A model generated the notes under the pieces. That model saw only the letters and a program-made list of their open reading frames with translations. It made no database searches and was not told the DNA's origin. From IMG/VR virus record IMGVR_UViG_3300032144_000017, positions 1 to 48,210 of that record: a DNA stretch of 48,210 nt; one strand, 5' to 3'. The DNA comes from a virus. The position numbers and the translations under genes were made by a program. How positions within the stretch are numbered: the first letter of the stretch is position 1; each line of letters opens with the position of its first letter. Of the stretch, positions 2,090 to 47,753 are shown in pieces.

Positions 2090-2114
2090 TACTTTATCGA
2101 AATTCGATGAAGTC
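2090..2114 (-). promoter_or_regulatory. 24-bp palindromic motif, copy 1
   Basis: Gene-orientation reading ACTTCATCGAATTTCGATAAAGTA. The TAA stop of CDS 2094..2543 lies inside the motif (codons ..TTC ATC GAA TTT CGA TAA). Confidence 0.9.
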
Positions 2115-2543
2115 CTCCTTCTTACCCTCTCTTAACTCCCAGCTCTTACACCAGCCTTCTTCTAATAACTCTATTCTCATTAAACCTACAAGATAATTAA
2201 CTGCATGTTCTTTACTATCAAACATAACCTCAAGCACATTACCATTGTCCTTACAAACAAGACAGTATGGTTTTTTACTACTGGCTTTTAAAACCAACGT
2301 ACGTCTATCTTCTAAATACTCTACAAGTTCTTTTCCGTTTTCTGCACTTAATATAAACTTAACCTCGCCAGCATCTGTTTCAATCAGTCCATAATACTGA
2401 ATAAATTGTTCTACATATTTACCGTATTGGTCTTTAACACAAAGACAAACTGGAAAATCGTGTTCCGTACATTCTAATAATGCTCGTTCAAGTAAATTAC
2501 CTAACACACTGTTTAAACCTTGCATTGTTAATTCCGTATTCAT
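2094..2543 (-). CDS. hypothetical early protein (149 aa), AT-rich island
   Basis: ORF track. Visibly AT-rich compared with flanking DNA. No motif recognised. Confidence 0.55.
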   Translation of the reverse strand: MNTELTMQGLNSVLGNLLERALLECTEHDFPVCLCVKDQYGKYVEQFIQYYGLIETDAGEVKFILSAENGKELVEYLEDRRTLVLKASSKKPYCLVCKDNGNVLEVMFDSKEHAVNYLVGLMRIELLEEGWCKSWELREGKKEDFIEFR

Positions 2544-2545
2544 AT

Positions 2546-2998
2546 TTAATTGTATTTTTGTATTACAAAGTCCTCACCATTTCGTCTAATCATTATCTTT
2601 ATACCTTTGTTGCGTGCCGCAGTATATAAACTCGTATGTGCTACACCCTTAGGTATAACTACAGGCTTATCAACCACTAGTGATCCTATGATCGTGCTAG
2701 GACTTAATCCTTTAACAGGCAGTTCGCCAGCCGTGAGTTCGAGCGCTTGTGCAACAGGCTGTGTAACTACTTCAACTGCTTGTCTTTTAACTCTTTTACC
2801 ACTTACGATATACCTGCGTTGGTCAAAGATGTGCAGCCTATCGTACTCTTCCTGCGTATAGTCACGCGTCTCATCAAACACAAGCTCAGCGCCAGTTCGT
2901 GGATATTGCACTTGGTCATACTCCCAAGCAGGTTCAAAGTGCTCGGGCAACCTACGTTCCCAAGCATAATACTTAAACATTATTTCTTTCTCAGTCAT
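2546..2998 (-). CDS. hypothetical early protein (150 aa), AT-rich island
   Basis: ORF track. Its C-terminal about 40 aa (VVIPKGVAHTSLYTAARNKGIKIMIRRNGEDFVIQKYN) loosely parallels the C-terminus of 2995..3321. Confidence 0.55.
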   Translation of the reverse strand: MTEKEIMFKYYAWERRLPEHFEPAWEYDQVQYPRTGAELVFDETRDYTQEEYDRLHIFDQRRYIVSGKRVKRQAVEVVTQPVAQALELTAGELPVKGLSPSTIIGSLVVDKPVVIPKGVAHTSLYTAARNKGIKIMIRRNGEDFVIQKYN

Positions 2999-3321
2999 GA
3001 GATCCTCCTAATATACACATTACCATCATAACCTTTCTTCGTCTCAACAATAATGTTGAGCTGCCTTGCACTTGAAGGCACACTTGAACGCTTGAAATTA
3101 CCAAGCGGTATTACATCTCCTACCTTTAACTTGCGTAGCGCATCGGCTAAACCATACGCTGCTTGTTGACGCTGTGCGCCTCGTTTGCTCTCTCGCCATA
3201 TAACTACAGGTAGTCCATTGTCATCGTATGGACCTGCATTGTGCGTCTGCTCGCCAGCTTGTGGGTTTTCCATGATAGCATTATATATTATTTTATGCTT
3301 TGTTCGAGAACAATCTATCAC
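2995..3321 (-). CDS. hypothetical early protein (108 aa; first leftward gene)
   Basis: ORF track, GTG start at 3321. An internal ATG 16 codons downstream is an alternative start. C-terminus is VIPLGNFKRSSVPSSARQLNIIVETKKGYDGNVYIRRIS. Confidence 0.5.
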   Translation of the reverse strand: MIDCSRTKHKIIYNAIMENPQAGEQTHNAGPYDDNGLPVVIWRESKRGAQRQQAAYGLADALRKLKVGDVIPLGNFKRSSVPSSARQLNIIVETKKGYDGNVYIRRIS

Positions 3322-3408
3322 AATCTTATTTGTTACCTCTTTAGTTTATTTGTCACTCCTATTGTGCGTGCTTAATCTGCTCGCACTAATTTGTCGGCTT
3401 TCTCCTCC

Positions 3409-3429
3409 TACTACTACTACTACTACTAT
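3409..3429. repeat. Left arm of a perfect 21-bp inverted repeat, (TAC)6TAT
   Basis: TACTACTACTACTACTACTAT is the exact reverse complement of 3524..3544. Confidence 0.95.
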
Positions 3430-3523
3430 AGGTATGTGTATAGTTAAAAAAAAATAATATATAGGACTATACAGATTGACCTATTGTTAGAGAGATGATC
3501 GCTCAGAAAAAATATGTTATTTA

Positions 3524-3544
3524 ATAGTAGTAGTAGTAGTAGTA
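3524..3544. repeat. Right arm of a perfect 21-bp inverted repeat, ATA(GTA)6
   Basis: ATAGTAGTAGTAGTAGTAGTA. The arms are separated by a 94-bp AT-rich spacer (3430..3523) that contains an A9 run. Confidence 0.95.
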
Positions 3545-3569
3545 CATTAAATAAAATCATCGCTATCTT

Positions 3570-3593
3570 ACTCTATCGAAATTCAATAAAGTC
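3570..3593 (+). promoter_or_regulatory. 24-bp palindromic motif, copy 2
   Basis: ACTCTATCGAAATTCAATAAAGTC. Lies 26 nt right of the right inverted-repeat arm, at the head of the rightward arm. Confidence 0.85.
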
Positions 3594-3847
3594 TATCGCT
3601 TCCTTCAGCAAACGAACGTATCGGTTAACTCCTGGCGCGACCACGTTATGGTTGGGAGTCCAGTATTAGCCTGACAAATGCCTCGCATTAGATTGTCTAA
3701 TGCAACGCCAGTTCTCACATTTTACAACAATTTTACACGGAGTTGGCATGAAAACATTTTTCAAATAAATCTCGCCATGTCGCTGCCGTTGTGAATGATT
3801 CTAGTCGCTGGCCAATTCCAGCCAGCGAAACAAACCACAAAAAACAA

Positions 3848-4204
3848 ATGACAACGAAAACATACGCTTGCTCCTATAAGGGAGCATCTTCAACCGCAAC
3901 CTCGCTGGCCTCGCAAATGCAGGCTGACAAGGCTGGCGCAATCCTCGTCTCTAACGGCTTTGGCAAAGCCTCGTTTTGCCTTTTCCTCGCACGCCTCGCA
4001 ATCCGCGCCATTGACGCGGGCTATGATGAGAAAAAGCTGACATTGCTTTTCCAAGCAATGGACGCGGGCAATGCGAGCGCCGCAGGCAAGGCAGCTGCTT
4101 CAATCGTCATCACCATTGACGGCAAGGCGCAATCCCTCGCAAAATACTGGGAGGATAACAACGTCACAAGCGAAGCGGTCACGCAGGACTTCAGCGACAT
4201 TTAA
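3848..4204 (+). CDS. hypothetical protein (118 aa) in a stand-alone cassette
   Basis: ORF track lists 3791..4204 from a GTG. The first ATG is at 3848, preceded by the A-rich sequence CCACAAAAAACAA. Followed by its own terminator. Confidence 0.5.
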   Translation: MTTKTYACSYKGASSTATSLASQMQADKAGAILVSNGFGKASFCLFLARLAIRAIDAGYDEKKLTLLFQAMDAGNASAAGKAAASIVITIDGKAQSLAKYWEDNNVTSEAVTQDFSDI

Positions 4205-4230
4205 CCACGGCGCAAGCTGACAACCCGCAA

Positions 4231-4268
4231 CCCTCGCAAGCCTAACAACTTGCGGGGGTTTTCATTTG
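4231..4268 (+). terminator. Rho-independent terminator
   Basis: CCCTCGCAAG-CCTAACAA-CTTGCGGGGG followed by TTTTCATTTG. The stem is 10 bp with one U.G wobble on the + transcript. Confidence 0.75.
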
Positions 4269-4343
4269 TGATCTAGTTGAGAATGGTTCGCAACTTCTTC
4301 AAGGCATCGAGCCGATTTAGCGCGACTATCGTCGCAAAAGGGG

Positions 4344-4366
4344 TACCCTTCCCCCAGGGAAGGGTA
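4344..4366. repeat. Perfect 10-bp inverted repeat with a 3-nt spacer
   Basis: TACCCTTCCC-CCA-GGGAAGGGTA, in the non-coding stretch between terminator 4231..4268 and promoter 4479..4507. Confidence 0.85.
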
Positions 4367-4478
4367 ATTAGGTATATATTAACGATGGAGCATTTTTTCA
4401 CAAAAAATCGACCTAGTGCGACCACTCGCCAGAAGTGCGAAAAGAGGGCCATAAGTGAAGGATTGTGAAAGATTGTTC

Positions 4479-4507
4479 TTGAACTAGGCTTTTCAATCTG
4501 ATATACT
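4479..4507 (+). promoter_or_regulatory. candidate sigma70-type promoter TTGAAC-N17-TATACT
   Basis: TTGAAC (4479-4484), 17-nt spacer, TATACT (4502-4507). Both hexamers match consensus at 5/6 positions. Upstream of the terminase genes. Confidence 0.45.
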
Positions 4508-4653
4508 ATGCGCTTAAATGAAGGACCAGCAGCCAGTAATCTCAGCACCGCTCTCCCACGAACTGGCAACTGTCAGCACTGGCGTTAAGCGGTCGGTTAA
4601 GTTGGAGCCTCAACACTTGGCGAGAGCCAAATCAACACTAGGAAAGCTTTTTC

Positions 4654-5160: not shown

Positions 5161-5222
5161 CTGGCGCCGCAGGCGCAATAACGGGAGCCTCCGCGTTACT
5201 GTTCTCGACCTCATTCCTTTAG

Positions 5223-5246
5223 ACTCCATCGAAATTCGATAAAGTG
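5223..5246 (+). promoter_or_regulatory. 24-bp palindromic motif, copy 3
   Basis: ACTCCATCGAAATTCGATAAAGTG. The last three bases are the GTG start listed for terL. Confidence 0.9.
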
Positions 5247-9887: not shown

Positions 9888-9911
9888 ACTCCATCGAATT
9901 TCGATAAAGTA
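9888..9911 (+). promoter_or_regulatory. 24-bp palindromic motif, copy 4
   Basis: ACTCCATCGAATTTCGATAAAGTA. Starts on the base after the fibre TAA stop. Confidence 0.9.
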
Positions 9912-16037: not shown

Positions 16038-16086
16038 ACTTGGTTATGCGCTACTACATGTTCTGTAGCAAGTAATCACGTGGACT

Positions 16087-16120
16087 GACGGCCTGTTACT
16101 GGTGTGGCAGGCCGTCTTTC
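16087..16120 (+). terminator. Rho-independent terminator candidate
   Basis: GACGGCCTG-N12-CAGGCCGTC (9-bp GC-rich stem) followed by TTTCC. Confidence 0.5.
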
Positions 16121-16124
16121 CTAC

Positions 16125-16148
16125 ACTTTATCGAATTTCCATAAAGTC
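16125..16148 (+). promoter_or_regulatory. 24-bp palindromic motif, copy 5
   Basis: ACTTTATCGAATTTCCATAAAGTC, directly abutting the ATG at 16149. Confidence 0.9.
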
Positions 16149-22195: not shown

Positions 22196-22219
22196 ACTTC
22201 ATCGAAATTCAATAAAGTC
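22196..22219 (+). promoter_or_regulatory. 24-bp palindromic motif, copy 6
   Basis: TAA TAA ACTTCATCGAAATTCAATAAAGTC ATG. It fills the whole gap between the stop and the next start. Confidence 0.9.
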
Positions 22220-23602: not shown

Positions 23603-26600
23603 ATGCCTCTCACATCCGACCTTTTTAGGGTTAAACAGTACAGGTCTATCAATCCTGAACTGGCTGATATCTCCGACAGGGATTTAGCCGACATTGTTTA
23701 TCAACAAACCGGTGAACTTGGGTCACTTCGTGACTCGAGCGCGCTTGGCCGTACGGTTGCGAGAGGCTCTAACTTTCTAACGAGCACAGGTGAAAGCTTG
23801 GAGCGTGGTATTACGAACACGCTTGGTGACTCATATCCGGCTCGTCTTGGTGCTCGTACTGCAAACATTGCACTGCAAAGCACCCCGGAGTACTTGATGA
23901 ACCTGGCTGCTGCTCGCGTACTGCCTCAGTCAAAGCTTGGTGCTGTTGGTATTGGTGCACTTAACGCGTTCACAGGTTATGGTCGGACAGCAGTAGAAAC
24001 TGGTGACCAATCTGCTGCACTTGGAGCAGGTGCTGGTACTGTGGCTAGCATGATTGGTGCACTCACGGGTGCTAAACTTGGTAACAAGTTTGGTGGTAAG
24101 ATTGGTGGTGCTGCTGGCGGTTTCATTGGTAGTATGCCCGGTGATGCACTGGAGATTGCTACGCAACCGGGTGGTTGGGAGGAGTTTCTTAAGGATCCTC
24201 TCAACCTGCCTGCTACCCTCCTTTCACAAGCACCGTACGCGGCTGTGGATCATTTTGTCGCCAAAGGTGAAGCTGCTAAGGAGAATCGTGAGAAGACGAT
24301 TGCTGCAACACCGGCGCTTGACGAGATCAGTGGGCAGAGCATTCAACAGGAACTGATTGGTTTGAAGAAAACACCTGTGTCACAACTGAGCGAACAGAAG
24401 GCTGCACGTATGAGTGAGCTTGAGGCGTTGTTGAAGAAGACCGACGCACAGGTTATGACGAAGGACGGTAAGCAGATACAGAAGGTAGCAGGAGCGGTTG
24501 AACACCCGCTTACGGCTTCACCGTTTTCATACATGTCCCAGATTGCCAACGTCTCGTGGGGCAAGCGACCTGCTATGTTTGTGCCTAAGGGCTCACTACC
24601 GGAGCTCGAGACTGTGCCGTTTGCTATGCAGGGTTTCAAGACGTACGAGACACCGGATGGTGACTGGCTGTACAATCCTGCCTTCACGTCTGAGCAAGCC
24701 ATCAAAGACTCAGTGGCTAAAGGCGACACCAACGGTATTCTTGGTCTTGGGCCTACTGGCAAGAACGACCAAAGCATGGGTGTCGTGGGTGTGTTGCGTA
24801 ATCGTCAAGGATTGGAAAAGCTTGGTGTGGAGCTCGAGTACCAGACGAAGCAGTCCATGCTTAAACGGTTGCAGGGCATGGCACTTAAGGGTGACACTGT
24901 TACTGTTGAGCCGCTTGCTGACTTCCTCAAGAAGCGTGAGAAGCAAAAAGGTACGGTTGCGCTTTACTCTCTTGAACAGCAGGGCACTCCCGAACAGAAA
25001 GAGGTCACACGCAAGTTCTGGCAAAACTCCTTACTGAAGAAGTTCCAGAGTGCGCTGTTGCCAACTGAACGGAAGGGTGCACGCTTTGAACTGGACGCTA
25101 ACGGCGAACTGGGTAACGCCGGTGTCGTTAAGGCTATGCGCCAGTGGGTGCCGCCTGCGATGATGGAACATTATGAGGCCTCTGGACTACAAAATTTCTT
25201 AGACTTTAATCGGACTGAATCCGACATTAAAGCTTACAATGCTGTACAGGAACAAATTCAACTTCGCAAGAAGGAGTTTGGTACACCTGAATTTAACAAG
25301 ATTTGGGCTGAAAACGAACGCATCAAGAACAAGTACAAGGGCTACGTTCCCACCACTTCATCGAAATCCGATAAAGTCTCGTTTGCTGCTCTCTCGGACT
25401 GGCTTGAACAAAACACTCCGCAGATTGAGATTAAACAGCTTAATCCGAACGCGTTTAAAGACGCGAATAGTCAAAGGCTTGCTCAGTTACAGCATACACT
25501 TGAGACGGCTGGCTACCGTGTTGAACAGGACATGGAAGGAAACCCAGAGATTAGTTATTCTGGTGAGCCAGTTACGGAACCAGCTGATTTTGATCGTTTG
25601 AATATCCCGCAAGCAGACCGGGATTTGATCAATAGTTTTTGGCGCTCACAAATCGTTGGTTTTGAGATTGGAACTGATGCAGCGACTGGCAAGTATGGCG
25701 TTGAACCTATCAACGTTAATGAGATGGACAGTCCGGTGGATATCCTTGTTCGTGTTCCTACACGTCAACTTACTTACGACGAGATTCACCAAGGCGCTGA
25801 CTACGGTCCGGAAACGAATAAACAACTAAGAGCCGACTATGAACGAGAGGCTGCTGCCAATAACATCAAGCGTACTCCTGACTTGTTTTCAGGTCCGCAC
25901 TTTGGTGACTCTGACCTAAACGTTCTTGCCAGTGTTCGTGGTTACTTTAAGAACCTGCCCACAGGAGAGCGTGCGTTCTTTCCGTTCGAAGTACAGAGTG
26001 ACTGGGCACAAGGTTTTCAGGGTCAGCAAAAACGACTGGATGAAATGAAGGCTCGTTTTACGCTTCGTCAGAACGAGGATAAAACTTATAGTATTTTTGA
26101 TAAGGAATACAATTACGATGGTCGTAAGTTTGCTGATAAAGCTGAAGCACAGGCGCGCTATGAGACTATCCTTGGTGCAGAGTCTGGTTATGGTCGTCGT
26201 AACATTGAGACCATAAAGAACCACGCATTGCTTTCTTCGTATGAAACGCTTGCTGTAAAGGCTGCAATTCAACACGCACTTGCGAATGGTGCCACCAAAA
26301 TCGTGTTCCCTGATTCAAAGACTGCAATGATGATCGAGGGTCATGATAAGCGTCCCCGCAGTATTGCGAATAGCTTTGAGAACTTGCTTGACCGTAAACC
26401 AAGTGTCGGTGACTGGGTTATGCAGGGTGGTCCTTACAGTGGTGGGCAAATCGTAAGCACACAAGCTGCTGCACAGGATATTGCAAGAAGCTACGAACGT
26501 TACAACGGTGCTGCTGCGCAGACCTCCATACGTCAGCTCACAGCTGCTGACTTTATTACGGAAGACCCTCGTCAAACAAAGGGTATGCGGCAGCACTACG

Positions 26601-29600: not shown

Positions 29601-31090
29601 AGCGTGTTAACTACGCTGGCACCCAAGTGTACAAGGGCTTCGAGAAGTTCATGCGCGCGACGGCTACTGCTTCAGAGCGTACCAATCGCCAAGTTTCGTT
29701 TATTATGAGCCTGCTCGAGTCGGAGCGCAAGGGCAGCACGGATCTTCGCAAGATGTACAATGATGCGAACGTCTTCACCGATTATGTCAACTTCGTAGGT
29801 GATAAGAGCAACCGACCTGGTTTTCAGGTTAAGTTGGGGCAGTCGTGGGCGCACGCACCTATGCTTGTCGCCACAGCATTGCAGAGCTTCGTGATCAACC
29901 ACATTAGCCAACTTTACGCTTACGGTAAGATGGCTATGAAAGGCGACATAAACGCCAAAAAGGCGTTTGCTACGGGGACAGTCCATCTTCTGGCGATGGC
30001 TGGTGCGATGGGTCTTCCATTTGCACAGAACGCGGAGCAGTTGTTTGAAGCAGCCACGGGTATTTCGCTAAAAGAAGCGATACGCCGTAAGCTAATTCTT
30101 GGTGCGCAAGAGCTGTTCGATCTGGATGCAAACAACGGAGGTCGTATTGCTGACACAGTGATGTCAGGTTTTCCACGTCTGCTTGGTATTGAAGCAGGGC
30201 AGTCTGTGGGCCTTGGAGATCCACTGTTCCGTGTAGAAGCTGGTAAAGTACCTTCAGCATACGACCTTGCTGGACCAGCAGGGGGACTAGCTGAAAAAGC
30301 CGTTCAAGGTCTAGACGCACTAACCGCGAATCCGTGGGATGGAGAGAGCTGGTGGAAGGCGACTCGGACTGTAGCGCCGCAAGCCTTGAACTACTGGCTA
30401 AAACTTTCCGACGCTCTAATGAAAGGTGGGTACTATGACAAGGGTGGTGCCCCTCTTGTGGAGAACCTGGATTCGAGTGCGAGTGTGTCATTGTTGGGTG
30501 GGTTTACGCCTACAGAGGTTTCTGATGTTCGGACTGTACAAAATCTTCGCCGAAAAGTGAATGAGAAAATTGATCGCGACTATAGTACGGCGGTTGATTT
30601 GACTGCGAAGGCTCTTCTAAACTATGAGCGGACTCAACGGGTTGAGGATCTGATGGAAGCAAACAAGCGCTTCGGTGATTACATTGAAGCGGCTGCTGGT
30701 ACACAGGATCGCGGGACGATGGTGACGTCTGTTTCAAATCGAGTAGAGCAACTTAAGAGTGCTGTTGAGGTTGCGCCGAGTCTGCGGGAGAGTCAGGCTT
30801 TTTCAGAAGCTCGGACATCTTACCCCGGAACAGTACCCCGTTATTCCGAACGACTTCCCGCAGCGTTTTCTGAGCTAAAAGTTGCTCGGTCACTGGGTCA
30901 AGACGATATTCTTCTCCAGAAACTAGGCGGTCTGAAGTCTTCTCTGATACAAAAGGCACTGTACGACCAGCTAGTTCGAGTAGGTTTCGAGCCTTATCAG
31001 GCTTCGCAGATTGCACAGGGCGGCAAATCGGCGGTCCAGAAAACGATTCGGACTTCCAACTTATCCTCCCCTGTTCCTCTAGAACCTTAA
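23603..31090 (+). CDS. giant virion-associated multidomain protein (2495 aa)
   Basis: One uninterrupted ORF. N-terminal glycine-zipper hydrophobic segment (GAVGIGALNAF...GGKIGGAAGGFIG). HExxH zincin motif HELSH at 27098..27112. Gly-rich hydrophobic C-terminal segments with a GDPLFRV motif, which as I recall resembles PLxRFG-type phage proteins. Confidence 0.8.
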   Translation: MPLTSDLFRVKQYRSINPELADISDRDLADIVYQQTGELGSLRDSSALGRTVARGSNFLTSTGESLERGITNTLGDSYPARLGARTANIALQSTPEYLMNLAAARVLPQSKLGAVGIGALNAFTGYGRTAVETGDQSAALGAGAGTVASMIGALTGAKLGNKFGGKIGGAAGGFIGSMPGDALEIATQPGGWEEFLKDPLNLPATLLSQAPYAAVDHFVAKGEAAKENREKTIAATPALDEISGQSIQQELIGLKKTPVSQLSEQKAARMSELEALLKKTDAQVMTKDGKQIQKVAGAVEHPLTASPFSYMSQIANVSWGKRPAMFVPKGSLPELETVPFAMQGFKTYETPDGDWLYNPAFTSEQAIKDSVAKGDTNGILGLGPTGKNDQSMGVVGVLRNRQGLEKLGVELEYQTKQSMLKRLQGMALKGDTVTVEPLADFLKKREKQKGTVALYSLEQQGTPEQKEVTRKFWQNSLLKKFQSALLPTERKGARFELDANGELGNAGVVKAMRQWVPPAMMEHYEASGLQNFLDFNRTESDIKAYNAVQEQIQLRKKEFGTPEFNKIWAENERIKNKYKGYVPTTSSKSDKVSFAALSDWLEQNTPQIEIKQLNPNAFKDANSQRLAQLQHTLETAGYRVEQDMEGNPEISYSGEPVTEPADFDRLNIPQADRDLINSFWRSQIVGFEIGTDAATGKYGVEPINVNEMDSPVDILVRVPTRQLTYDEIHQGADYGPETNKQLRADYEREAAANNIKRTPDLFSGPHFGDSDLNVLASVRGYFKNLPTGERAFFPFEVQSDWAQGFQGQQKRLDEMKARFTLRQNEDKTYSIFDKEYNYDGRKFADKAEAQARYETILGAESGYGRRNIETIKNHALLSSYETLAVKAAIQHALANGATKIVFPDSKTAMMIEGHDKRPRSIANSFENLLDRKPSVGDWVMQGGPYSGGQIVSTQAAAQDIARSYERYNGAAAQTSIRQLTAADFITEDPRQTKGMRQHYDNSIPGIVSRLTNDSGKQVDMGVFTARTASEHFKNPDGTPKDRITGRVYDLSNLKPDVENLFAMYGQPDQANYAEGLKHAETELEKRIHEGADVTSEELMDALSRGENVDKAIALNYLKGLLGNVDKVRAFLSDPVSGINILGRTVGTEVALNLKQKNEKAFGILGHELSHVSAHLLEYGNPEAYKDFISYPTVHMTAETRKMALEELYKAAGIEAKDLDYAAGLKFNKDDPNLAKKQALEFYGALAEVLSTQVFRDSGINPTIKKYLSWLPMGAQRWLTTLSAQFTKFMGGQTPSLRYMLDAESQKLVTDAYSKLVKFTHQTQTSQNTAIKSLKRLGLYDEQEFISNLANFNDRDRWGPAERSARAMGDMANYALDFTRASQFAKKSGDVFEDWVMSPLFRTKLHPETLDFFRELHHYRNKIKQYEHGYMAYLGQNADGTRSQEQALQAADDHIQSLIRPGKGRNDRLLAMSKVIARNQEIRENVTNPPLGAQAGPQKFVTKDQLVSVEEMKTKYGLSEQDADFLNRLIDLPKQVSEQTLRFMQATDTVNMSKLFYIQNRDMNISAVKGKVAELTRISNDAGANSLENKMYQKYHEQIAQRSGDNTDTLNRLSAEIAMTEQRKLAFNQQMELHIRQAFANEIQFDPRPGQDPFINQVTAAATRLAEARAEQAFIMKDEGYAPMTRRGRYLVQVYKDALGTPLPNTVQSMQGFKTLQEARAFMAANKLTDGKDSKLIDKETFVARAQMYSSQQLQSVRDKARRDFDDVIRAYEKNLPDSPHKAAQLQVLSDMKNQYRPLQQEISEVISAKGDKFKERRYNVEGFNELDFIPNIFEYVNYKTIVGQKGLTRAEAELQTLRPTVQSDPAMQARMAKETDYVLNHTSEAAGIRKLVFYNYLGGSVRHMIQNLLQVPLNGIPEMFAQGAGHHSYSHAVKAGYLATKYMKDGTTGNKNFDILLKQAEKEGVTIPNAIEHFAPESSAMEGALDNVNAQMNGTKQLGERVNYAGTQVYKGFEKFMRATATASERTNRQVSFIMSLLESERKGSTDLRKMYNDANVFTDYVNFVGDKSNRPGFQVKLGQSWAHAPMLVATALQSFVINHISQLYAYGKMAMKGDINAKKAFATGTVHLLAMAGAMGLPFAQNAEQLFEAATGISLKEAIRRKLILGAQELFDLDANNGGRIADTVMSGFPRLLGIEAGQSVGLGDPLFRVEAGKVPSAYDLAGPAGGLAEKAVQGLDALTANPWDGESWWKATRTVAPQALNYWLKLSDALMKGGYYDKGGAPLVENLDSSASVSLLGGFTPTEVSDVRTVQNLRRKVNEKIDRDYSTAVDLTAKALLNYERTQRVEDLMEANKRFGDYIEAAAGTQDRGTMVTSVSNRVEQLKSAVEVAPSLRESQAFSEARTSYPGTVPRYSERLPAAFSELKVARSLGQDDILLQKLGGLKSSLIQKALYDQLVRVGFEPYQASQIAQGGKSAVQKTIRTSNLSSPVPLEP
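25355..25378 (+). promoter_or_regulatory. 24-bp palindromic motif, copy 7 (inside the giant gene, in frame)
   Basis: ACT TCA TCG AAA TCC GAT AAA GTC encodes TSSKSDKV at codons 585-592. Confidence 0.85.
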
Positions 31091-32187: not shown

Positions 32188-32211
32188 GACTTTATCGAAT
32201 TTCAATAATGT
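32188..32211 (-). promoter_or_regulatory. 24-bp palindromic motif, copy 8
   Basis: The - strand reads TAA ACATTATTGAAATTCGATAAAGTC tccagac ATG. The motif begins on the base after the exonuclease stop and ends 7 nt before the next start. Confidence 0.85.
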
Positions 32212-32784: not shown

Positions 32785-33104
32785 TTAAGTGCCTTTACTT
32801 TGAGTTTATGGATTTTCCACTCGTCCGCGAACTCGACACGAACAAGTGGGATTGCTTTGTACAAAAGGATCTGTTGATAGTAGGCTTTCTTGCCTGGCAC
32901 TTTGACCTTCTCGGTCGTGCGGGTTACGTCCATCTCGAACTCGTCGTCCGAAATCTGTCTTCCGGTTACAATCAGGAGTTGTTCGCCCAGCGCCTTGAGC
33001 ACAGCATACGCATACGTAGTGCCAGCTTTGGTCGCCAGGTAATCGACGATATCATCAGTAGTAGCTTCCTTGCTACCGCCATCGGGCATAGTTTCTTTAA
33101 TCAT
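32781..33104 (-). CDS. hypothetical protein (107 aa)
   Basis: ORF track. Its stop overlaps the next gene's start by 4 nt. Confidence 0.5.
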   Translation of the reverse strand: MIKETMPDGGSKEATTDDIVDYLATKAGTTYAYAVLKALGEQLLIVTGRQISDDEFEMDVTRTTEKVKVPGKKAYYQQILLYKAIPLVRVEFADEWKIHKLKVKALK

Positions 33105-33615
33105 GTTTAAATAAACCTAACGTTTCATTAGTAGGGTTGCTTAACTTTAAGTTTGTAATAAGTTTATCGTAAGCTCTAGCTGCGTCTTCTGCTGTTTTAT
33201 AACCACGCTTCTTTATGTTCCAGGTACCAGAATTTAACATTATATAATAACTAGTACCTTCAAAGCCAACGCCTTTAAAACCTGTTGTGTTTGTTCTATA
33301 GCCTTGGTTTCGTACATTTTCTAGCTGTGTTTTGTATTCTAAATTAGACTTACTATTATTTAGAGGGTCTCTGTCTTTGTGATCTACAACAAAGCCTTCT
33401 TTTCTTGGTAATAATAAATGTGTTAGGCGACCTGTTTGTTGTGTACGATTGTTATAATAACTGACGCGATGTACTTTAGTATTATCATCTCGACCATCTA
33501 TGCATAATGTAACATCTTGAAGCAAAGGTAAGTCTTCTGTATCTACTGTAACGTAAAATACTAACTTATCAGCAATACGTGTACGTCTAATAATTCGTAT
33601 TTGTGTTGTGCTCAT
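33097..33615 (-). CDS. HNH homing endonuclease with an AP2-like DNA-binding domain
   Basis: HNH core VDHKDRDPLNNSKSNLE. AP2-like region GFKGV...YKTAEDAARAYD. Markedly AT-rich. ATGA overlap with the DNA polymerase stop. Confidence 0.8.
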   Translation of the reverse strand: MSTTQIRIIRRTRIADKLVFYVTVDTEDLPLLQDVTLCIDGRDDNTKVHRVSYYNNRTQQTGRLTHLLLPRKEGFVVDHKDRDPLNNSKSNLEYKTQLENVRNQGYRTNTTGFKGVGFEGTSYYIMLNSGTWNIKKRGYKTAEDAARAYDKLITNLKLSNPTNETLGLFKHD

Positions 33616-36219: not shown

Positions 36220-36443
36220 AATTTTACTTTTTATTTGTTTTCGTCTCGCTCGCGCCTAGCTCGCTACGCTCGCTGGCGCTCCCTCGTCCGGACACGCTTC
36301 GCGCACCATAGGCATGCGCGCGTCCGTCCTGCTACCCGCACCGGACAAGCCGGTGCTAGCCATGCGTTGTGCCTCCGGCACCCGAACCCTGCTGTCGATC
36401 CGATCAAACCGGCTGAGTGAGTGTGCATGGAGTGAGTGGTTGG
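36220..36443 (-). repeat. GC-rich non-coding element B
   Basis: The - strand carries GTGCC-GGA-GGCAC (36369..36381) and a 57-nt 3' block (36237..36293) about 80 percent identical to element A 10191..10250. Hairpin GCGCC-N18-GGCGC. Confidence 0.7.
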
Positions 36444-36467
36444 ACTATATCGAATTTCGATAAAGTC
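36443..36467 (-). promoter_or_regulatory. 24-bp palindromic motif, copy 9
   Basis: The - strand reads TG[A]CTTTATCGAAATTCGATATAGTC. The stop of the small ORF 36466..36636 overlaps its first base. Confidence 0.85.
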
Positions 36468-37965: not shown

Positions 37966-39459
37966 TTAAAGAGGTAGTTCGGAGAGCAAGCCCTCGCTTA
38001 CGCCCTTCTTACCGAGGCGTTCTTGGATGTAGTTGAGTCCGTTGGCGATGTGAGTCTCGTCGATCTCAATACCGAAGGGAACCCTCTTACGTTTAAACGC
38101 TTGTGCGAGGAACGAACCCTCTCCTGCGAACGGGTCGATGATGATGTCGCCTTCTTGAGAGACAGAGTCGATGAGGTAATCCCACACTTCTGGCGGCTTC
38201 ACAAACGGGTGGCTAGCCGAGCTTACGCTGTCGCAGCAAATCCAGTTCTTGTTCTGTTTGGTGCGGAGGATGCTCTTCTCCGACTTCCGCATAATCATGC
38301 AGACTTCGGTGGCTTTGGTAATGTTGTACTGAGCTTGACTGTTTGAGCAGGGGCTGGTCTTGCACCACACGAGTGGCCAGCGAGTAACACGCCAACCGAT
38401 TTTGCCTGCCCAGTCTTGGAGCTTTTCTTGATGGTCCAGGTCGTACCACATGCACAGGAAACCGTCTTCTGCGACGTTGTCGAAGGCAACACGAAGGAAG
38501 TCTTGCAGCAGTGACATGTTACCAGCCACTTGGTGGGTGTCTTCAATACGCTCGATCTTGCCTGGTGCTGCTGATAGGTTGTCAGTATTGATTCCATAAG
38601 GCGGATCACAGATGATGTGAGAGATTTTACCAGAGCTGGCGATCTGCGGTATTAGCTTTAAGCAATCACCGTGGTAGTAGAGTTTAGAAATGTCGGTAAC
38701 AGAAAGCAAAGGCTGGTCGCGCTTGGCCGCAGGAAGGTTAATCTTTATCGGATCTACTGTGGTGACAGTAACAGTGGCGGCAGCGAGGTCCACGTTCTTA
38801 GCCGTGAGCGCACGCTTAGAGTTGATGCGAGACAACTGTTCCTTTGCAGCTTCGTCGCGCTCTCCAGCCACCAACAGTTGAACGGCCTCAAACATGCTCG
38901 AGGCCTTCCACAAAGCAGAGTCCTTGTTCTTGACCATGTGCTTCGCCACTTTAATGGCGGTCGAGACGCTGCTTTGCGGCACACCAAGAATCTCCGAGGT
39001 TGCATCTTGTGACCAACGTAAATGATCTGTGAGTGCTTCTTTGGTCGCCAGCCGGTGGTAGTCTACAATGCCAAACATGTTCTCCTGCCAAGTCATACTC
39101 TTGCGTTTGAGGTTCTCGTCAAGCTCCAACATCCGGCGCTTCGCGGGAGACAAAGACTCGAGTTCGGTTACAGGGATGATGCTATAATACTGAGAATACG
39201 GCATACTGTCGCCATTTGGCATCGTCACGACTTTATCTAATTTCGATAAAGTATTAAAAGAAGCAAAGCGTCGGCCTCCGGCAACCAGATTGTTATTAGC
39301 ATCAATTACTACTGGATGCATGAGCCCGCGTGTTGAGGCGAGGTCGACCTGATTACGCTCGATACTATCTATTAGTAGTTCGAGTTCGCTCATGTCTTTG
39401 CGCAGACGCTCTTGGTCTACAACGATGTCAGTTAGCTTTCGGTAGTTTAGGTTGTTCAT
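37966..39459 (-). CDS. ParB-like N-terminal domain fused to an N6/N4 DNA methyltransferase
   Basis: ParB box GLMHPVVI...LVAGGRR. Methyltransferase motif IV DPPYG and AdoMet motif IIIDPFAGEGS. Confidence 0.8.
   Translation of the reverse strand: MNNLNYRKLTDIVVDQERLRKDMSELELLIDSIERNQVDLASTRGLMHPVVIDANNNLVAGGRRFASFNTLSKLDKVVTMPNGDSMPYSQYYSIIPVTELESLSPAKRRMLELDENLKRKSMTWQENMFGIVDYHRLATKEALTDHLRWSQDATSEILGVPQSSVSTAIKVAKHMVKNKDSALWKASSMFEAVQLLVAGERDEAAKEQLSRINSKRALTAKNVDLAAATVTVTTVDPIKINLPAAKRDQPLLSVTDISKLYYHGDCLKLIPQIASSGKISHIICDPPYGINTDNLSAAPGKIERIEDTHQVAGNMSLLQDFLRVAFDNVAEDGFLCMWYDLDHQEKLQDWAGKIGWRVTRWPLVWCKTSPCSNSQAQYNITKATEVCMIMRKSEKSILRTKQNKNWICCDSVSSASHPFVKPPEVWDYLIDSVSQEGDIIIDPFAGEGSFLAQAFKRKRVPFGIEIDETHIANGLNYIQERLGKKGVSEGLLSELPL
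39229..39252 (-). promoter_or_regulatory. 24-bp palindromic motif, copy 10 (inside the ParB-methyltransferase gene, in frame)
   Basis: ACT TTA TCG AAA TTA GAT AAA GTC encodes TLSKLDKV at codons 70-77, followed by GTG ACG ATG. Confidence 0.85.
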
Positions 39460-43308: not shown

Positions 43309-43332
43309 AACTTTATCGAATTTCGATGGAGT
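43309..43332 (-). promoter_or_regulatory. 24-bp palindromic motif, copy 11
   Basis: The - strand reads TAA tt ACTCCATCGAAATTCGATAAAGTT, then 12 nt, then the ATG of the nuclease gene. Confidence 0.9.
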
Positions 43333-44974: not shown

Positions 44975-45026
44975 GTATCTATTTAGTTATGGTTTCGTAT
45001 CTTTGTTGTTAGTAGCCAGCTGGCAA

Positions 45027-46126: not shown

Positions 46127-46164
46127 TCGGGTTTAGTGATAACTCGGGCAAAGGGGAGCATGAT

Positions 46165-46228
46165 AGCAGAGCGTCAAATAGAAAGCGAGAACAATCTATC
46201 GCATTTCATAACAATCTTTGACGCTCTG
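46165..46228. repeat. Perfect 13-bp inverted repeat with a 38-nt spacer
   Basis: GCAGAGCGTCAAA (46165..46177) and TTTGACGCTCTGC (46216..46228), in the gap upstream of CDS 45635..46126. Confidence 0.85.
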
Positions 46229-46237
46229 CCATGCGGA

Positions 46238-46486
46238 CTATCGGCTTACCAGCATGTTGAATTCGGTAACTATCAAGTCACCATCCTCCGGCTTAAACTG
46301 ATTACGAAGATAGTCAGCTGCGCCTTGCGCCTCGCGTTTGTTGGACCACAGAGTTGGGACGACAACGTCCTCAAACTTGCAGTCCGCCAGAACGCTGGCG
46401 TCAAGTATAACTACGCGCTTCTGCACGTGCGAGAGGAAGGTTGTCCCAACCTTGATGGCGTATCGTTTAGACAGGGTAGTCTTCAT
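46238..46486 (-). CDS. hypothetical protein (82 aa)
   Basis: ORF track. Confidence 0.5.
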   Translation of the reverse strand: MKTTLSKRYAIKVGTTFLSHVQKRVVILDASVLADCKFEDVVVPTLWSNKREAQGAADYLRNQFKPEDGDLIVTEFNMLVSR

Positions 46487-46659
46487 TGTTCGAATGTCTC
46501 CTTTAGTGTTTTGTATAGCTCGTTAGCTACTTCAGGGTCTAACATGATGATGTTGCTGGCGTGAACAGGCACGTGGTGCCCGGTTGTGAGGACAACATGG
46601 TATCCGTCGTTGCCGACGTACACGCTGTCGCCAATATATTTTGACTCTGGCAGTTTCAT
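46483..46659 (-). CDS. small ORF (58 aa) not on the track
   Basis: Hand-translated: MKLPESKYIGDSVYVGNDGYHVVLTTGHHVPVHASNIIMLDPEVANELYKTLKETFEQ. ATGA overlap with the next start. Confidence 0.45.
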   Translation of the reverse strand: MKLPESKYIGDSVYVGNDGYHVVLTTGHHVPVHASNIIMLDPEVANELYKTLKETFEQ

Positions 46660-46669
46660 GGTTAAAGGA

Positions 46670-46728
46670 TGTTCGTCAGCCTACTCGGCAGCCTCTTTGT
46701 TAGTGGCGCACTCTTCAGCTGACGAACA
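46670..46728. repeat. 11-bp inverted repeat with a 37-nt spacer
   Basis: TGTTCGTCAGC (46670..46680) and GCTGACGAACA (46718..46728), between the stop at 46735 and the start at 46659. Confidence 0.8.
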
Positions 46729-46734
46729 AAGTGT

Positions 46735-47052
46735 TTAGTTTCGGGGCATCTCTCCAAACGCACTGGCCATCGCCTGAATCGTTTGGCCAACCGCGCTCAT
46801 CAACTTGATGGCAGCCTCAGAACGCGCGGTGTTAATATCGTGCTTGGCTTTTTCATAACCTTCTTTGAAGCGTTGGTCGCCAAAGTCACGCCTTTCACCG
46901 TGAGCGCGAAGCGCGTCTGCGACTTCTTCATCCTTGAACATTGGCGTCTCGAAGTCATGTCCATAGGCTGCGGCCTGCTTGTGGAGCTTGGTGCCCACGT
47001 CAATGGGCGACTTCTTCTTACGGTTGTATTTGCGTTTCGTTTGTGTCTTCAT
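46735..47052 (-). CDS. hypothetical basic protein (105 aa)
   Basis: ORF track. Lys/Arg-rich N-terminus. Confidence 0.5.
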   Translation of the reverse strand: MKTQTKRKYNRKKKSPIDVGTKLHKQAAAYGHDFETPMFKDEEVADALRAHGERRDFGDQRFKEGYEKAKHDINTARSEAAIKLMSAVGQTIQAMASAFGEMPRN

Positions 47053-47383
47053 TTTGTTTCTTTTTAGCTGGTATTAACGGCAATTTGCCTTGATTAGTTA
47101 GTGTAGCAATACGCTCGACTGCATATCGACGTACGTGTCTTTGCATTCGTTCATCGTTGGAGATGTTCGCATTTCCAAACGCTCCCCGCTTCCCATCGTC
47201 AATAGATCGTTGTGCAGACGCTGCTGCTCGGTTAGCCTTAGTAGCGTCGATTGCGTCTTGAGTGATGCTAACAACGGGAAACTGCGGCTTGGGTGCAGCA
47301 GCGCGTTCTTTACGACGGGCGGCATAGGCGTCACGATCAAACGACGATATGGTCTTGTCACGTTCACGGGACTTGGTAGACAT
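47018..47383 (-). CDS. hypothetical protein (121 aa)
   Basis: ORF track. Confidence 0.5.
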   Translation of the reverse strand: MSTKSRERDKTISSFDRDAYAARRKERAAAPKPQFPVVSITQDAIDATKANRAAASAQRSIDDGKRGAFGNANISNDERMQRHVRRYAVERIATLTNQGKLPLIPAKKKQNEDTNETQIQP

Positions 47384-47389
47384 GGCTGG

Positions 47390-47704
47390 TTAGTCGTCAT
47401 CGCGCTTAGGACGCTTGGTGAGTAGAAGTTTAACTGGGGTGATAGCCTCGTGGAGATCGAAGGCCTTGATGACCTTCCGGAGTTCTTCGTGGCAGTAGTA
47501 AGCAGTGTAGTCGATCGACACGTACTCACCAGCACTAATGATTGACTGTGCCTCAGGGAATAGTGGGCGAGCACACTGACTGGCTACGCAGTCACGCAGT
47601 ATGGCAAAGCCAGCCTGCGTACGATCTGCGTAAGCCTTGTCAATGAGCTCTTGTGTGATGTCGAGCTCGATTGTTTCGGGATAGTCTTCGTATACTTTAG
47701 TCAT
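47390..47704 (-). CDS. hypothetical protein (104 aa), first gene after motif copy 12
   Basis: ORF track. The ATG lies 24 nt downstream of the motif. Confidence 0.55.
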   Translation of the reverse strand: MTKVYEDYPETIELDITQELIDKAYADRTQAGFAILRDCVASQCARPLFPEAQSIISAGEYVSIDYTAYYCHEELRKVIKAFDLHEAITPVKLLLTKRPKRDDD

Positions 47705-47728
47705 ATTTGTGGTTGGTTGTTCTTGTTA

Positions 47729-47753
47729 GACTTTATCGAATTTCGATAAAGTA
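47729..47753. promoter_or_regulatory. 24-bp palindromic motif, copy 12 (only perfectly symmetric copy)
   Basis: ACTTTATCGAA-T-TTCGATAAAGT has perfect 11-bp arms. It matches the consensus when read on either strand. Confidence 0.9.

What the first reader, a model, noticed from the sequence alone, without database searches (positions are those of the whole stretch)
2090..47753. A 24-bp near-palindrome, 12 copies, marking gene junctions around the whole genome
Seen directly. The consensus in gene orientation is ACTYYATCGAAATTCGATAAAGTC. Copies lie at 2090, 3570, 5223, 9888, 16125, 22196, 25355, 32188, 36443, 39229, 43309 and 47729. Spacing is 1.5-6.8 kb, on both arms, and always in the orientation of the local genes. 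Placement is very precise. Four copies begin within 3 nt after a stop codon (9888, 22196, 32188, 43309), and in two more the upstream stop codon lies inside the motif (2094) or overlaps its first base (36466). At 5223, 16125 and 22196 the start codon abuts or overlaps the last base. At 22196 and 32188 the motif essentially is the intergenic region. This is not a sigma70 or T7-type promoter layout, it is not GC-rich or T-tailed like a terminator, and it is too conserved to be chance. Candidate roles are an operator for a dimeric phage DNA-binding protein, an RNA-processing or translational-operator hairpin, a hairpin-type promoter giving leaderless mRNAs, or a recombination boundary between modules.
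Basis: partly seen in the sequence, partly recalled or inferred. Interest (0 to 1): 0.8.

Follow-up and report, generated by a model that had tools for sequence, protein, structure and literature searches.

The report
Genome-wide regulatory palindrome of a phage
A 23-base palindrome sits at 12 evenly spaced places in this uncultured 48-kb phage, usually wedged between one gene's stop codon and the next gene's start codon, and related phages carry their own versions at the same places, so it is a real control signal, although the protein that reads it is unknown.

Summary
There are exactly 12 copies of ACTYYATCGAAWTTCGATAAAGT(C). Shuffled sequence gives none, and the next-best weight-matrix hit scores 8.6 bits against more than 27 bits for the real sites. 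The window is a complete circular phage genome of 48,083 bp with no close GenBank relative.

At least five related metagenomic phages carry the element at syntenic gene junctions. The outer arms, ACTTTAT and ATAAAGT, are conserved. The inner arms change together in each genome: CGA/TCG, AAA/TTT or TAG/CTA. The stop codon usually touches position 1. The start codon lies -4 to +2 from the 3' edge in about 21 of 48 sites. One copy inside the giant gene is conserved. Spacing is more even than chance (P about 0.002).

It is not a terminator, not a sigma-70 promoter and not an mRNA hairpin, because mismatches break the sense-strand hairpin 30 times against 5. No phage RNA polymerase was found; the giant protein belongs to the polyvalent or ejection-protein class.

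My best reading (about 0.4) is a double-stranded DNA site for a co-evolving phage protein that gates host transcription at the head of each gene module, much like a stoperator. The main rival (about 0.25) is a phage-specific or hairpin-type promoter that gives near-leaderless mRNAs.

This is a new variant of a known kind.

The parts
2090..2113 (-). Motif copy 1 (ACTTCATCGAATTTCGATAAAGTA). It follows the first three leftward genes. The stop codon of ORF 2094-2543 lies inside the right arm.
3570..3593 (+). Motif copy 2, in the divergent control region. It lies about 200-250 nt upstream of a conserved stand-alone gene (3848-4204).
5223..5246 (+). Motif copy 3. The last three bases are the GTG start codon of the large terminase gene. 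Syntenic in L002, L004, L006, L007 and L009.
9888..9911 (+). Motif copy 4. It begins directly after the TAA stop of the tail-fibre gene, and an ATG follows 14 nt downstream.
16125..16148 (+). Motif copy 5. It lies between a strong terminator-like hairpin (about 16082-16121) and the ATG of the adaptor gene (16149). The same arrangement is seen in seven relatives.
22196..22219 (+). Motif copy 6. It fills the whole intergenic space: TAATAA, motif, then the ATG of the 458-aa gene.
25355..25378 (+). Motif copy 7. It lies in frame inside the 2495-aa gene (codons 585-592). It is conserved at the same place in L012 and L013, in each case with that genome's own inner arms.
32188..32211 (-). Motif copy 8. 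It lies between the stop codon of the RNase_T exonuclease gene and the DUF3987 primase/helicase gene, whose ATG is 7 nt downstream. Syntenic in L011, L012 and L013.
36443..36466 (-). Motif copy 9, upstream of the DNA polymerase module. The upstream TGA overlaps the first base of the motif. Syntenic in L011 and L012.
39229..39252 (-). Motif copy 10. It lies in frame inside the methyltransferase ORF (codon 70) and is followed by GTG. In L012 the copy sits just upstream of the whole gene instead.
43309..43332 (-). Motif copy 11. It starts 2 nt after a TAA stop and ends 12 nt before the ATG of the exonuclease gene.
47729..47752 (-). Motif copy 12, a perfect match to the consensus. It lies about 340 nt downstream of a strong terminator (48120-48095) and 24 nt before the ATG at 47704.
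1379..1386 (-). Isolated right half-site, ATAAAGTA, directly before the ATG of gene 1166-1378. This may be chance, since about 3 heptamers are expected.

Best explanation
The 23-bp palindrome is a cis-regulatory site that works at the DNA level. A phage-encoded, sequence-specific protein, probably a dimer, reads it on double-stranded DNA and has co-evolved with it in each lineage. The protein is unidentified. Bound at the head of each gene module, and once inside the 7.5-kb gene, it gates host RNA polymerase as the enzyme enters that module. This would make it an operator or 'stoperator'-like checkpoint used for genome-wide timing or silencing.

Shown: the sites are real, conserved, syntenic, co-varying, directional, evenly spaced and tied to start codons. 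They are not mRNA hairpins, terminators or sigma-70 promoters.

Inferred: that a protein binds them, that the protein is phage-encoded, and that the effect is on transcription elongation or entry rather than initiation.
For: 1. Real and exclusive. There are 12 sites and 0 in shuffles, with a clean gap in weight-matrix scores.
2. Conserved with co-variation. In relatives with 49-78% portal identity, the outer arms ACTTTAT/ATAAAGT are kept. The inner arms change together across all copies of a genome: CGA/TCG, AAA/TTT or TAG/CTA. In L009 the central 3 nt are free. In L008 the 9-nt centre is not palindromic at all. Arms conserved in sequence around a free centre is the pattern of a duplex-DNA binding site, not of an RNA stem-loop.
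3. The sense-strand hairpin is not preserved. Mean energy is -4.1 kcal/mol, two copies score 0.0, and there are 30 C.A breaks against 5 G.U wobbles.
4. No phage RNA polymerase or sigma factor was found by Pfam, PHROGs, PDB searches or motif scans. The only giant protein shares its C-terminal 750 aa with polyvalent proteins. Transcription is therefore by host RNA polymerase. A host-type promoter cannot fit, because the start codon lies -4 to +2 from the motif edge.
5. Even spacing and a conserved copy inside the longest gene suggest that coverage of the whole genome matters.
6. Sites sit on both arms, in the divergent control region, and 100-250 nt upstream of a conserved stand-alone gene that ends in a terminator. 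That gene is a candidate autoregulated factor.
7. Precedent. Stoperators lie in short intergenic spaces and are oriented with transcription (PMC9283540). ESAS inverted repeats have subcluster-specific consensus sequences and were judged to be DNA-binding sites (PMC3203893).
Against: - No DNA-binding protein was identified. No HTH, repressor, integrase or partition gene was found, so a lysogeny-type silencing system has no independent support.
- The candidate factor could not be modelled (pLDDT 45).
- A symmetric dimer does not by itself explain the directional asymmetry (10 of 12 sites, and the 30:5 mismatch bias). The bias persists in the intragenic copies.
- When spare intergenic room exists, the motif hugs the start codon and not the stop codon (at least 9 cases). 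A promoter or a translation-linked signal predicts this more naturally than a road-block does.
- Centre-to-centre distance of the conserved outer half-sites is 16 bp, which is unusual for simple HTH dimers.
Confidence: 0.4

Rival explanations
1. Phage-specific promoter. The element is a self-contained 23-bp start signal, comparable to T7-class promoters in size and distribution. It might be used as a template-strand hairpin, as with N4 virion RNA polymerase. Transcription would begin in the right arm and give leaderless or 1-7-nt-leader mRNAs for the first gene of each module.
For: - Start codons lie -4 to +2 from the 3' edge in about 21 of 48 sites, and protein homology begins at residue 2, so the starts are real.
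- The motif stays next to the start codon when room is available, and in eight genomes it follows a terminator before the adaptor gene.
- The element is directional.
- Mismatches keep G.T pairing on the template strand, 30 against 5. Antisense hairpins average -7.2 kcal/mol against -4.1 for sense.
- The palindrome centre is 11-13 nt from the start codon, as N4 hairpins are centred at -11 (PMC4496689).
- All copies co-evolve within a genome, as T7, T3 and SP6 promoters do.
- Orphan promoter motifs that need unknown phage factors exist in YuA and 14-1 (PMC10914365).
Against: - No RNA polymerase, sigma factor or RNAPII-like gene was found.
- The giant protein gives hhalign probability 0.8% against N4 gp50, and its conserved domain is the C-terminal module of polyvalent proteins.
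- The sites lack any sigma-70 -10/-35 geometry that would place a start site before the start codon.
- N4 hairpins are GC-rich, have 5-7-bp stems with conserved loops, and occur only in the early region. These are AT-rich 10-11-bp arms with variable centres, and they occur genome-wide.
- In L008 the centre is not palindromic.
- Copies inside the giant gene and the methyltransferase gene would give truncated messages.
- Other terminators (44231-44198) are followed at once by start codons with no motif, so read-through is normal here.
Confidence: 0.25
2. RNA-level element. The transcribed palindrome would act in the mRNA as a translational operator or coupling hairpin that hides the start codon, or as a processing or stability site.
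For: - The stop-23 nt-start geometry fits ribosome-mediated unfolding of a hairpin whose 3' arm holds the start codon.
- Most genes lack a Shine-Dalgarno sequence, so translation initiation may need other signals.
- The A-rich right arm is the best-conserved part.
Against: - Sense hairpins are weak or absent, and breaks are of the C.A type rather than G.U.
- Stem sequence is conserved while the loop is free, which is the opposite of known RNA-protein hairpins.
- In L008 the centre is not complementary.
- Copies far from any upstream ORF, inside genes and in the control region do not fit coupling.
- There is no Rfam match.
- The element is too short and too weak for RNase III.
Confidence: 0.08
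3. Replication or chromosome-level signal. The sites would act as hairpin priming sites (ssi-like) for the phage primase/helicase, as nicking sites, or as anchor sites for DNA organisation. Any of these could need regular spacing.
For: - Spacing is significantly even, and a conserved intragenic copy fills what would otherwise be a 10-kb gap.
- There is a strand-specific hairpin bias.
- The phage encodes a DUF3987 primase/helicase and an HNH endonuclease.
Against: - If replication starts at the divergent AT-rich region, the better-paired strand is the leading-strand template, where priming is not needed.
- The tight link to start codons has no explanation under this reading.
- The HNH gene is absent from relatives that keep the motif.
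Confidence: 0.08
4. Recombination or mobile element. The repeats would be module-boundary sequences that mediate gene shuffling, like PeSL cassettes, or REP/MITE-like selfish palindromes.
For: Gene content next to some sites varies between relatives. A GIY-YIG homing endonuclease sits directly after a site in L002, and tail-fibre cassettes differ between the terminase and portal sites.
Against: - Positions are syntenic across relatives down to 49% portal identity.
- All copies in a genome share lineage-specific inner arms, and one copy persists inside a conserved coding region. This shows selection on the sequence itself.
- No transposase or RAYT gene is present.
- Copy number is low and stable (11-12).
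Confidence: 0.06

Closest known systems
Stoperators of Cluster A mycobacteriophages (L5 gp71-type repressor sites)
   Same: Many copies are spread over both arms of a phage of about 50 kb that relies on host RNA polymerase. They lie in very short intergenic spaces that touch stop and start codons, are oriented with transcription, and have lineage-specific consensus sequences (PMC9283540).
   Different: Stoperators are 13-bp asymmetric sites bound by a monomeric two-domain repressor in temperate phages. Here the site is a 23-bp near-palindrome, and no repressor, integrase or partition genes were found.
SAS/ESAS repeats of Cluster K mycobacteriophages
   Same: Repeats sit within a few bases of start codons and in one orientation. 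The ESAS are inverted repeats whose consensus differs between subclusters and whose mismatches do not support RNA pairing. Their function is unknown (PMC3203893).
   Different: SAS contains a Shine-Dalgarno-like AGGAG and is confined to the non-structural half of the genome. ESAS arms are 17 bp with a variable spacer. Here a single compact 23-bp unit occurs on both arms and has no SD-like core.
Cluster O mycobacteriophage 17-bp palindrome (TGTTCGG-N3-CCGAACA)
   Same: Inverted repeats surround a free 3-nt centre. There are many copies throughout the genome, intergenic or near the 5' ends of genes. Their function is unknown (PMC4351075).
   Different: There are more than 30 copies, with no clear orientation relative to transcription, GC-rich arms and no precise abutment to start codons.
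Hairpin promoters of coliphage N4 virion RNA polymerase
   Same: Inverted repeats are centred about 11 nt upstream of the start and are read on the template strand (PMC4496689). The genome layout is also similar, with a giant virion protein gene converging on a replication arm.
   Different: N4 has three early promoters with GC-rich 5-7-bp stems and a conserved loop, and it needs the 3500-aa vRNAP. Here there are 12 AT-rich sites genome-wide and no detectable polymerase.
T7-class single-subunit RNA polymerase promoters, and orphan phage promoter motifs (YuA, 14-1)
   Same: These are self-contained conserved motifs of about 20-23 bp ahead of gene modules, sometimes inside genes, and they co-evolve between related phages. 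The YuA and 14-1 motifs work with unknown phage factors on host RNA polymerase (PMC10914365).
   Different: Those motifs are asymmetric and lie well upstream of ribosome-binding sites.

Membership tests
Intrinsic (rho-independent) terminator | GC-rich stem-loop in the transcript followed by a U tract | tested here: not met
   The arms are AT-rich, and no T run follows 11 of the 12 copies. The sense hairpin averages -4.1 kcal/mol. Canonical terminators exist elsewhere in the genome.
Sigma-70-type promoter | -35 and -10 hexamers 16-18 bp apart, with the start site about 7 nt after the -10 hexamer and upstream of the start codon | tested here: not met
   No consensus scan hit coincides with any copy. 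The only TAnnnT within the motif (TAAAGT, positions 18-23) would put the start site beyond the abutting start codon.
N4-type hairpin promoter | Inverted repeat centred about 11 nt upstream of the first transcribed base, read on the template strand | tested here: inconclusive
   The centre is at position 12 and start codons are at positions 20-26. G.T-tolerant mismatches lie on the template strand, 30 against 5. No 5'-end data are available.
N4-type hairpin promoter | A virion or other single-subunit RNA polymerase encoded by the phage | tested here: not met
   The 2495-aa protein has no Pfam, PHROG or PDB hit and no motif A/B/C pattern. It gives hhalign probability 0.8% against N4 gp50, and its conserved domain is the C-terminus of polyvalent proteins.
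N4-type hairpin promoter | GC-rich 5-7-bp stem, conserved 3-nt loop, restricted to early genes | tested here: not met
   The arms are AT-rich and 10-11 bp long. The centre is variable in L009 and non-palindromic in L008. Sites occur on both arms.
T7-class promoter | Conserved asymmetric element of about 23 bp plus a cognate single-subunit RNA polymerase gene | tested here: not met
   Size and distribution fit, but the element is palindromic and no polymerase gene was found.
Cluster A stoperator system | Many sites in short intergenic spaces, oriented with transcription | tested here: met
   Ten of 12 sites are gene-oriented in the leave-one-out test, and stop and start codons abut the sites.
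Cluster A stoperator system | 13-bp asymmetric site bound by a monomeric HTH-plus-stoperator-domain immunity repressor in a temperate phage | tested here: not met
   The site is a 23-bp palindrome. No HTH, repressor, integrase or partition gene was found by Pfam or PHROGs. No integrated relatives were found in 185,579 genomes.
Operator of a dimeric DNA-binding protein | Two-fold symmetric half-sites conserved in sequence, with a spacer that tolerates change | tested here: met
   The outer arms are conserved family-wide. The centre is free in L009, L004 and L008. The inner arms change symmetrically.
Operator of a dimeric DNA-binding protein | A cognate binding protein | not testable with these tools
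   Candidates only: the conserved stand-alone gene 3848-4204 and the three leftward immediate-early ORFs. The AF2 model was unusable.
Structured RNA or translational operator hairpin | Base pairing in the transcript kept by compensatory and G.U changes | tested here: not met
   Between genomes both arms change together, which a DNA palindrome explains equally well. Within genomes the breaks are C.A on the sense strand, 30 against 5. There is no Rfam family match.
REP/MITE-like mobile palindrome or CRISPR-repeat mimic | Variable insertion sites with an associated transposase, or similarity to CRISPR repeats | tested here: not met
   Positions are syntenic in 6-8 genomes. No transposase is present. 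There is no Rfam CRISPR-DR hit.

The most novel reading that the evidence does not exclude
The palindromes would be extruded as hairpins and read on the template strand by an unrecognised phage-encoded RNA-synthesising enzyme, either a highly divergent polymerase or the primase/helicase. The enzyme would start exactly at the start codon. A whole 48-kb phage genome, early and late genes alike, would then be expressed as leaderless mRNAs from N4-style hairpin promoters, in a lineage with no detectable relationship to N4.
Probability: 0.12. Interest if true: 0.85.

Novelty: new variant of a known kind. Interest (0 to 1): 0.58.

Why it matters
Genome-wide, lineage-specific regulatory repeats are known from a few well-studied phage groups: T7-like promoters, stoperators, and the SAS/ESAS and Cluster O repeats. 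For most of them the reader protein and mechanism were found late or are still unknown.

This case is a clean, compact example in an uncultured clade recovered from metagenomes, with no annotated regulator. Several features make it unusually tractable:
- a 23-bp palindrome fixed to the base between stop and start codons
- co-variation across relatives
- a conserved copy inside a gene
- even spacing

The co-varying inner arms give a direct handle for finding the cognate protein by correlated evolution. The sites also give ready-made operon boundaries for annotating this phage family. If the hairpin-promoter reading were right, it would extend an N4-only mechanism to a whole genome.

Tried and rejected
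1. Close GenBank relatives. Megablast found none. The nearest cultured phages share only 26-28% portal identity, and the Vibrio phage among them has no such repeat.
2. Exact-pattern scan of IMG/VR with the window's own motif. This gave one chance-like hit.
3. Protein-seeded scans of viral and metagenome contigs. Both found nothing. Relatives were reached through the protein database and contig look-ups instead.
4. Giant protein as an RNA polymerase.
   - A TxxGR-like block (MTRRGRY, residues 1684-1688) and a motif-A-like block (LDFIPNIFEY) looked promising.
   - No motif B or C was found.
   - There were no PDB, Pfam or PHROG hits, and hhalign against N4 gp50 was negative.
   - The exhaustive search showed that the domain is the C-terminal module of polyvalent proteins carrying helicase, RadC, ART, InPase and PBECR domains. 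Rejected.
5. Two-barrel RNA polymerase DxDGD motif anywhere in six frames. None was convincing.
6. Pfam and PHROGs on all 47 small ORFs. Only two PHROG families of unknown function matched (phrog_17693 and phrog_19722), plus Pfam matches to my own linker sequence; nothing informative.
7. ParB domain in the methyltransferase. Not detected.
8. Structure of the candidate regulator. pLDDT was 45, so the model is unusable.
9. Terminator-then-motif as proof of promoter function. This was weakened because other terminators are followed directly by start codons with no motif.
10. Host identification. Only distant (26-35%) portal matches were found, in MAG bins of Flavobacteriales, Verrucomicrobiia/Udaeobacter and Omnitrophota.
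11. General 18-base pattern scan of metagenomes. It found five very close relatives of the window phage, three more distant family members and many unrelated single hits.

Full report

A search for the stated consensus with up to three mismatches finds 19 strand-matches that collapse to exactly the 12 listed loci. None occurs in 100 dinucleotide-preserving shuffles. A weight matrix built from the 12 copies scores every site above 27 bits on both strands, and the next best position in the genome scores 8.6 bits. There is no tail of degenerate copies.

Four refinements apply:
- Orientation is weakly defined for a near-palindrome. In a leave-one-out test 10 of 12 copies score higher in gene orientation (p=0.04). 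Sites 16125 and 32188 do not.
- Two copies are not at junctions. They lie in frame inside ORFs, at 25355 and 39229.
- Spacing around the circle is more even than chance: CV 0.42, P=0.002; largest gap 6.8 kb, P=0.005.
- The 'ParB-domain protein' was not found.

**2. What is the genome?**

The two ends of the window are an identical 127-nt overlap, so this is a circular assembly of 48,083 bp.

Genes diverge from an AT-rich control region at about 3.3-3.8 kb and converge at about 31 kb.
- The rightward arm carries terminase, tail fibre, an SU10-type portal and capsid, an adaptor, tail genes and a 2495-aa protein.
- The leftward arm carries small ORFs, an exonuclease, Sak4, a methyltransferase, a ligase, a family-A DNA polymerase with a UDG-like domain, an HNH endonuclease, an RNase_T-type exonuclease and a DUF3987 primase/helicase.

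There is no megablast match in GenBank phages. The nearest cultured phages share 26-28% portal identity. Most genes have no Shine-Dalgarno sequence. No tRNA gene and no Rfam family was found.

**3. Relatives.**

Portal and polymerase homologues led to contigs of about 46-49 kb from metagenomes. Pattern scans added fragments of near-identical phages.

Every relative down to 49% portal identity carries a version of the element.
- The outer arms, ACTTTAT and ATAAAGT, are kept throughout.
- The inner three pairs are specific to each genome and change on both arms together: CGA/TCG in the window and in L006/L011, AAA/TTT in L002/L003/L012, and TAG/CTA in L007/L013 and L009.
- In L009 the central three bases differ from copy to copy.
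- In L004 and L008 the 9-nt centre is not palindromic.

The sites are syntenic. They occur:
- before the terminase gene
- before the portal gene
- between a terminator and the adaptor gene (eight genomes, counting the window)
- before the 458-aa gene
- before the DNA polymerase gene
- between the exonuclease and the DUF3987 gene
- at or in the methyltransferase gene
- in the divergent control region
- inside the giant gene, where each genome's copy has that genome's own inner arms

The phage represented by L002/L003/L012 has at least 11 copies.

**4. Anatomy at the junctions.**

In the relatives the upstream stop codon typically overlaps or touches position 1 of the motif. The downstream start codon lies -4 to +2 from position 23 in about 21 of 48 sites, and 3-24 nt away in 12 more.

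The ATAATGT variant supplies the ATG itself, and AAAGTG supplies a GTG. Protein homology between genomes begins at residue 2 of these ORFs, so the start codons are real.

Where the intergenic gap is larger (45-148 nt), the motif stays next to the start codon and not next to the stop codon.

**5. What it is not.**

*Not a terminator.* The arms are AT-rich and carry no T tail. Canonical terminators exist elsewhere, for example at 4229-4260, about 16082-16121, 44231-44198 and 48120-48095.

*Not a sigma-70 promoter.* No -35/-10 geometry can place a transcription start before the abutting start codon.

*Not an mRNA hairpin.*
- Folded as sense RNA the 12 copies average -4.1 kcal/mol, and two copies give 0.0. 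The antisense strand averages -7.2 kcal/mol.
- Over 41 oriented sites in six genomes, non-Watson-Crick pairs are C.A on the sense strand 30 times and G.U 5 times.
- The sequence of the arms is conserved while the centre is free. Known RNA-protein hairpins show the opposite pattern.

*Not a mobile element.* The positions are syntenic and no transposase is present.

**6. Is there a phage RNA polymerase?**

This question decides between the two main readings, so I pursued it.

The 2495-aa protein has no Pfam, PHROG or PDB match, either alone or as a four-sequence profile.

A TxxGR-like block and a motif-A-like block caught my eye. However, motifs B and C are absent, and hhalign against N4 gp50 gives probability 0.8%.

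The exhaustive search showed that residues 1600-2350 are homologous to the extreme C-termini of 1500-5100-aa proteins. Three sampled members carry Sbno-type helicase, RadC, ART-PolyVal, InPase, PBECR and methylase domains. These are 'polyvalent' proteins, which by my own knowledge are delivered into the cell with the DNA. The invariant HExxH motif fits that class.

No two-barrel polymerase motif exists in any frame. No small ORF matches a sigma factor, an HTH protein or an N4 RNAPII-like family.

On present evidence, transcription is by host RNA polymerase.

**7. Best explanation.**

The element has these properties:
- It is a palindrome whose arms are conserved in sequence.
- Its centre tolerates change.
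- Its inner arms co-evolve in all copies of a genome.
- It cannot house a host-type promoter.

Together these are best read as a duplex-DNA binding site for a phage-encoded protein, probably a dimer.

The sites lie at the head of each module, and coverage is even, including a conserved copy inside the 7.5-kb gene. The sites are also directional. This resembles the stoperators of Cluster A mycobacteriophages (PMC9283540). I therefore propose that the bound protein gates host polymerase as it enters each module.

The extreme abutment to stop and start codons then reflects genome compaction around an element that cannot overlap coding sequence freely.

A candidate reader is the conserved 118-aa product of 3848-4204. 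It is a stand-alone unit with a motif 100-250 nt upstream in all the relatives where this region could be examined, a conserved TTGGCA-containing block upstream, and a strong terminator downstream. Its fold could not be predicted. Confidence in this reading is about 0.4.

**8. Main rival.**

The rival is a phage-specific promoter, possibly read as a template-strand hairpin as in N4 (PMC4496689), that gives near-leaderless mRNAs. It explains four things better than the operator reading does:
- the attachment to start codons
- the directionality
- the 30:5 bias that keeps G.T pairing on the template strand, which persists in intragenic copies (5:0)
- the placement after the capsid-operon terminator

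Three points count against it:
- No polymerase was found.
- The palindromic centre is lost in L008.
- The copies inside genes would give truncated messages.

Other terminators are followed directly by start codons with no motif, so a terminator does not by itself imply a promoter. I give this reading about 0.25.

The RNA-level, replication or organisation, and recombination readings each get less than 0.1.

**9. Comparison with known systems and novelty.**

The closest described systems are:
- stoperators
- the SAS/ESAS repeats of Cluster K phages (PMC3203893)
- the 17-bp palindrome of Cluster O phages (PMC4351075)
- N4 hairpin promoters
- orphan promoter motifs such as those of YuA and 14-1 (PMC10914365)

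The present element fails at least one defining feature of each, as set out in the membership table. It clearly belongs to the general class of genome-wide, lineage-specific phage regulatory repeats.

I rate it a new variant of a known kind, of moderate to good interest. It is real, conserved and unusually precise, and its reader can be found. Its mechanism is unresolved, and similar unexplained repeats are already on record.

Noticed in passing
window 1-127 and 48084-48210: The two ends carry identical 127-nt sequences. This is a circular-assembly overlap, so the true genome is 48,083 bp and the window holds the whole phage.
   Followed up: partly
window 4205-4653: A non-coding block lies between a strong terminator (4229-4260) and the terS-like gene, and it is conserved in five relatives. 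It contains an inverted repeat TTGAGAc...gTTCTCAAC, an invariant AAAGGGGTACCCTTCCC (4337-4353) and GGTATATATT (4371-4380). It is unique in the genome. It could be a pac/cos site, a promoter or a small RNA.
   Followed up: partly
window 3408-3546: In the divergent control region, a (CTA)7 run and an inverted (TAG)7 run flank a 95-nt AT-rich stretch. This may be an origin or an early-promoter region.
   Followed up: no
window 3297-3325 and 4461-4489: A 29-nt inverted repeat (86% match) lies at the start of the leftward early ORFs and upstream of the terS-like gene. The second arm overlaps a sigma-70-like TTGAAC-17-TATACT with an extended TG.
   Followed up: no
window 30753-31090: The DUF3987 primase/helicase gene (minus strand) overlaps the 3' end of the giant gene (plus strand) by 337 nt. 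tblastn shows the same convergent overlap in L011, L012 and L013, where the gene callers missed the DUF3987 gene.
   Followed up: partly
window 23603-31090: The 2495-aa protein has an invariant HExxH (H1166, E1167, H1170). Its C-terminal domain of about 750 aa is shared with 1500-5100-aa 'polyvalent' proteins. It also contains a TxxGR-like block (1684-1688) that I judged coincidental.
   Followed up: yes
window 3700-3790; L003, L004, L006, L007, L009 equivalents: A conserved block, GTTGGCATGAAAA...AAATAAATCTCGAC, lies upstream of the stand-alone 118-aa gene. In L006 and L003 a motif copy sits 6-7 nt upstream of the TTGGCA.
   Followed up: partly
L002 10734-11066; L010 5254-5880: GIY-YIG homing-endonuclease genes are inserted directly downstream of motif copies in relatives. 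The window instead has an HNH gene (33097-33615) that the relatives lack.
   Followed up: no
L007 189-725: One relative carries a peptide deformylase gene next to its early region.
   Followed up: no
L016, L018, L022, L028, L035, L037, L047, L049, L059: A different sequence with the same outer arms, ACTTTATAAACAAAATATAAAGTC followed by ATG, recurs once per contig in many contigs that share no detectable protein with the window phage. Either the outer-arm signal is used more widely, or this is a coincidence within one abundant organism.
   Followed up: no
window, genome-wide: The sense strand is enriched in C over G and in A over T on both arms. The bias runs in the same direction as the motif's deviations but is too small to explain them.
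   Followed up: partly
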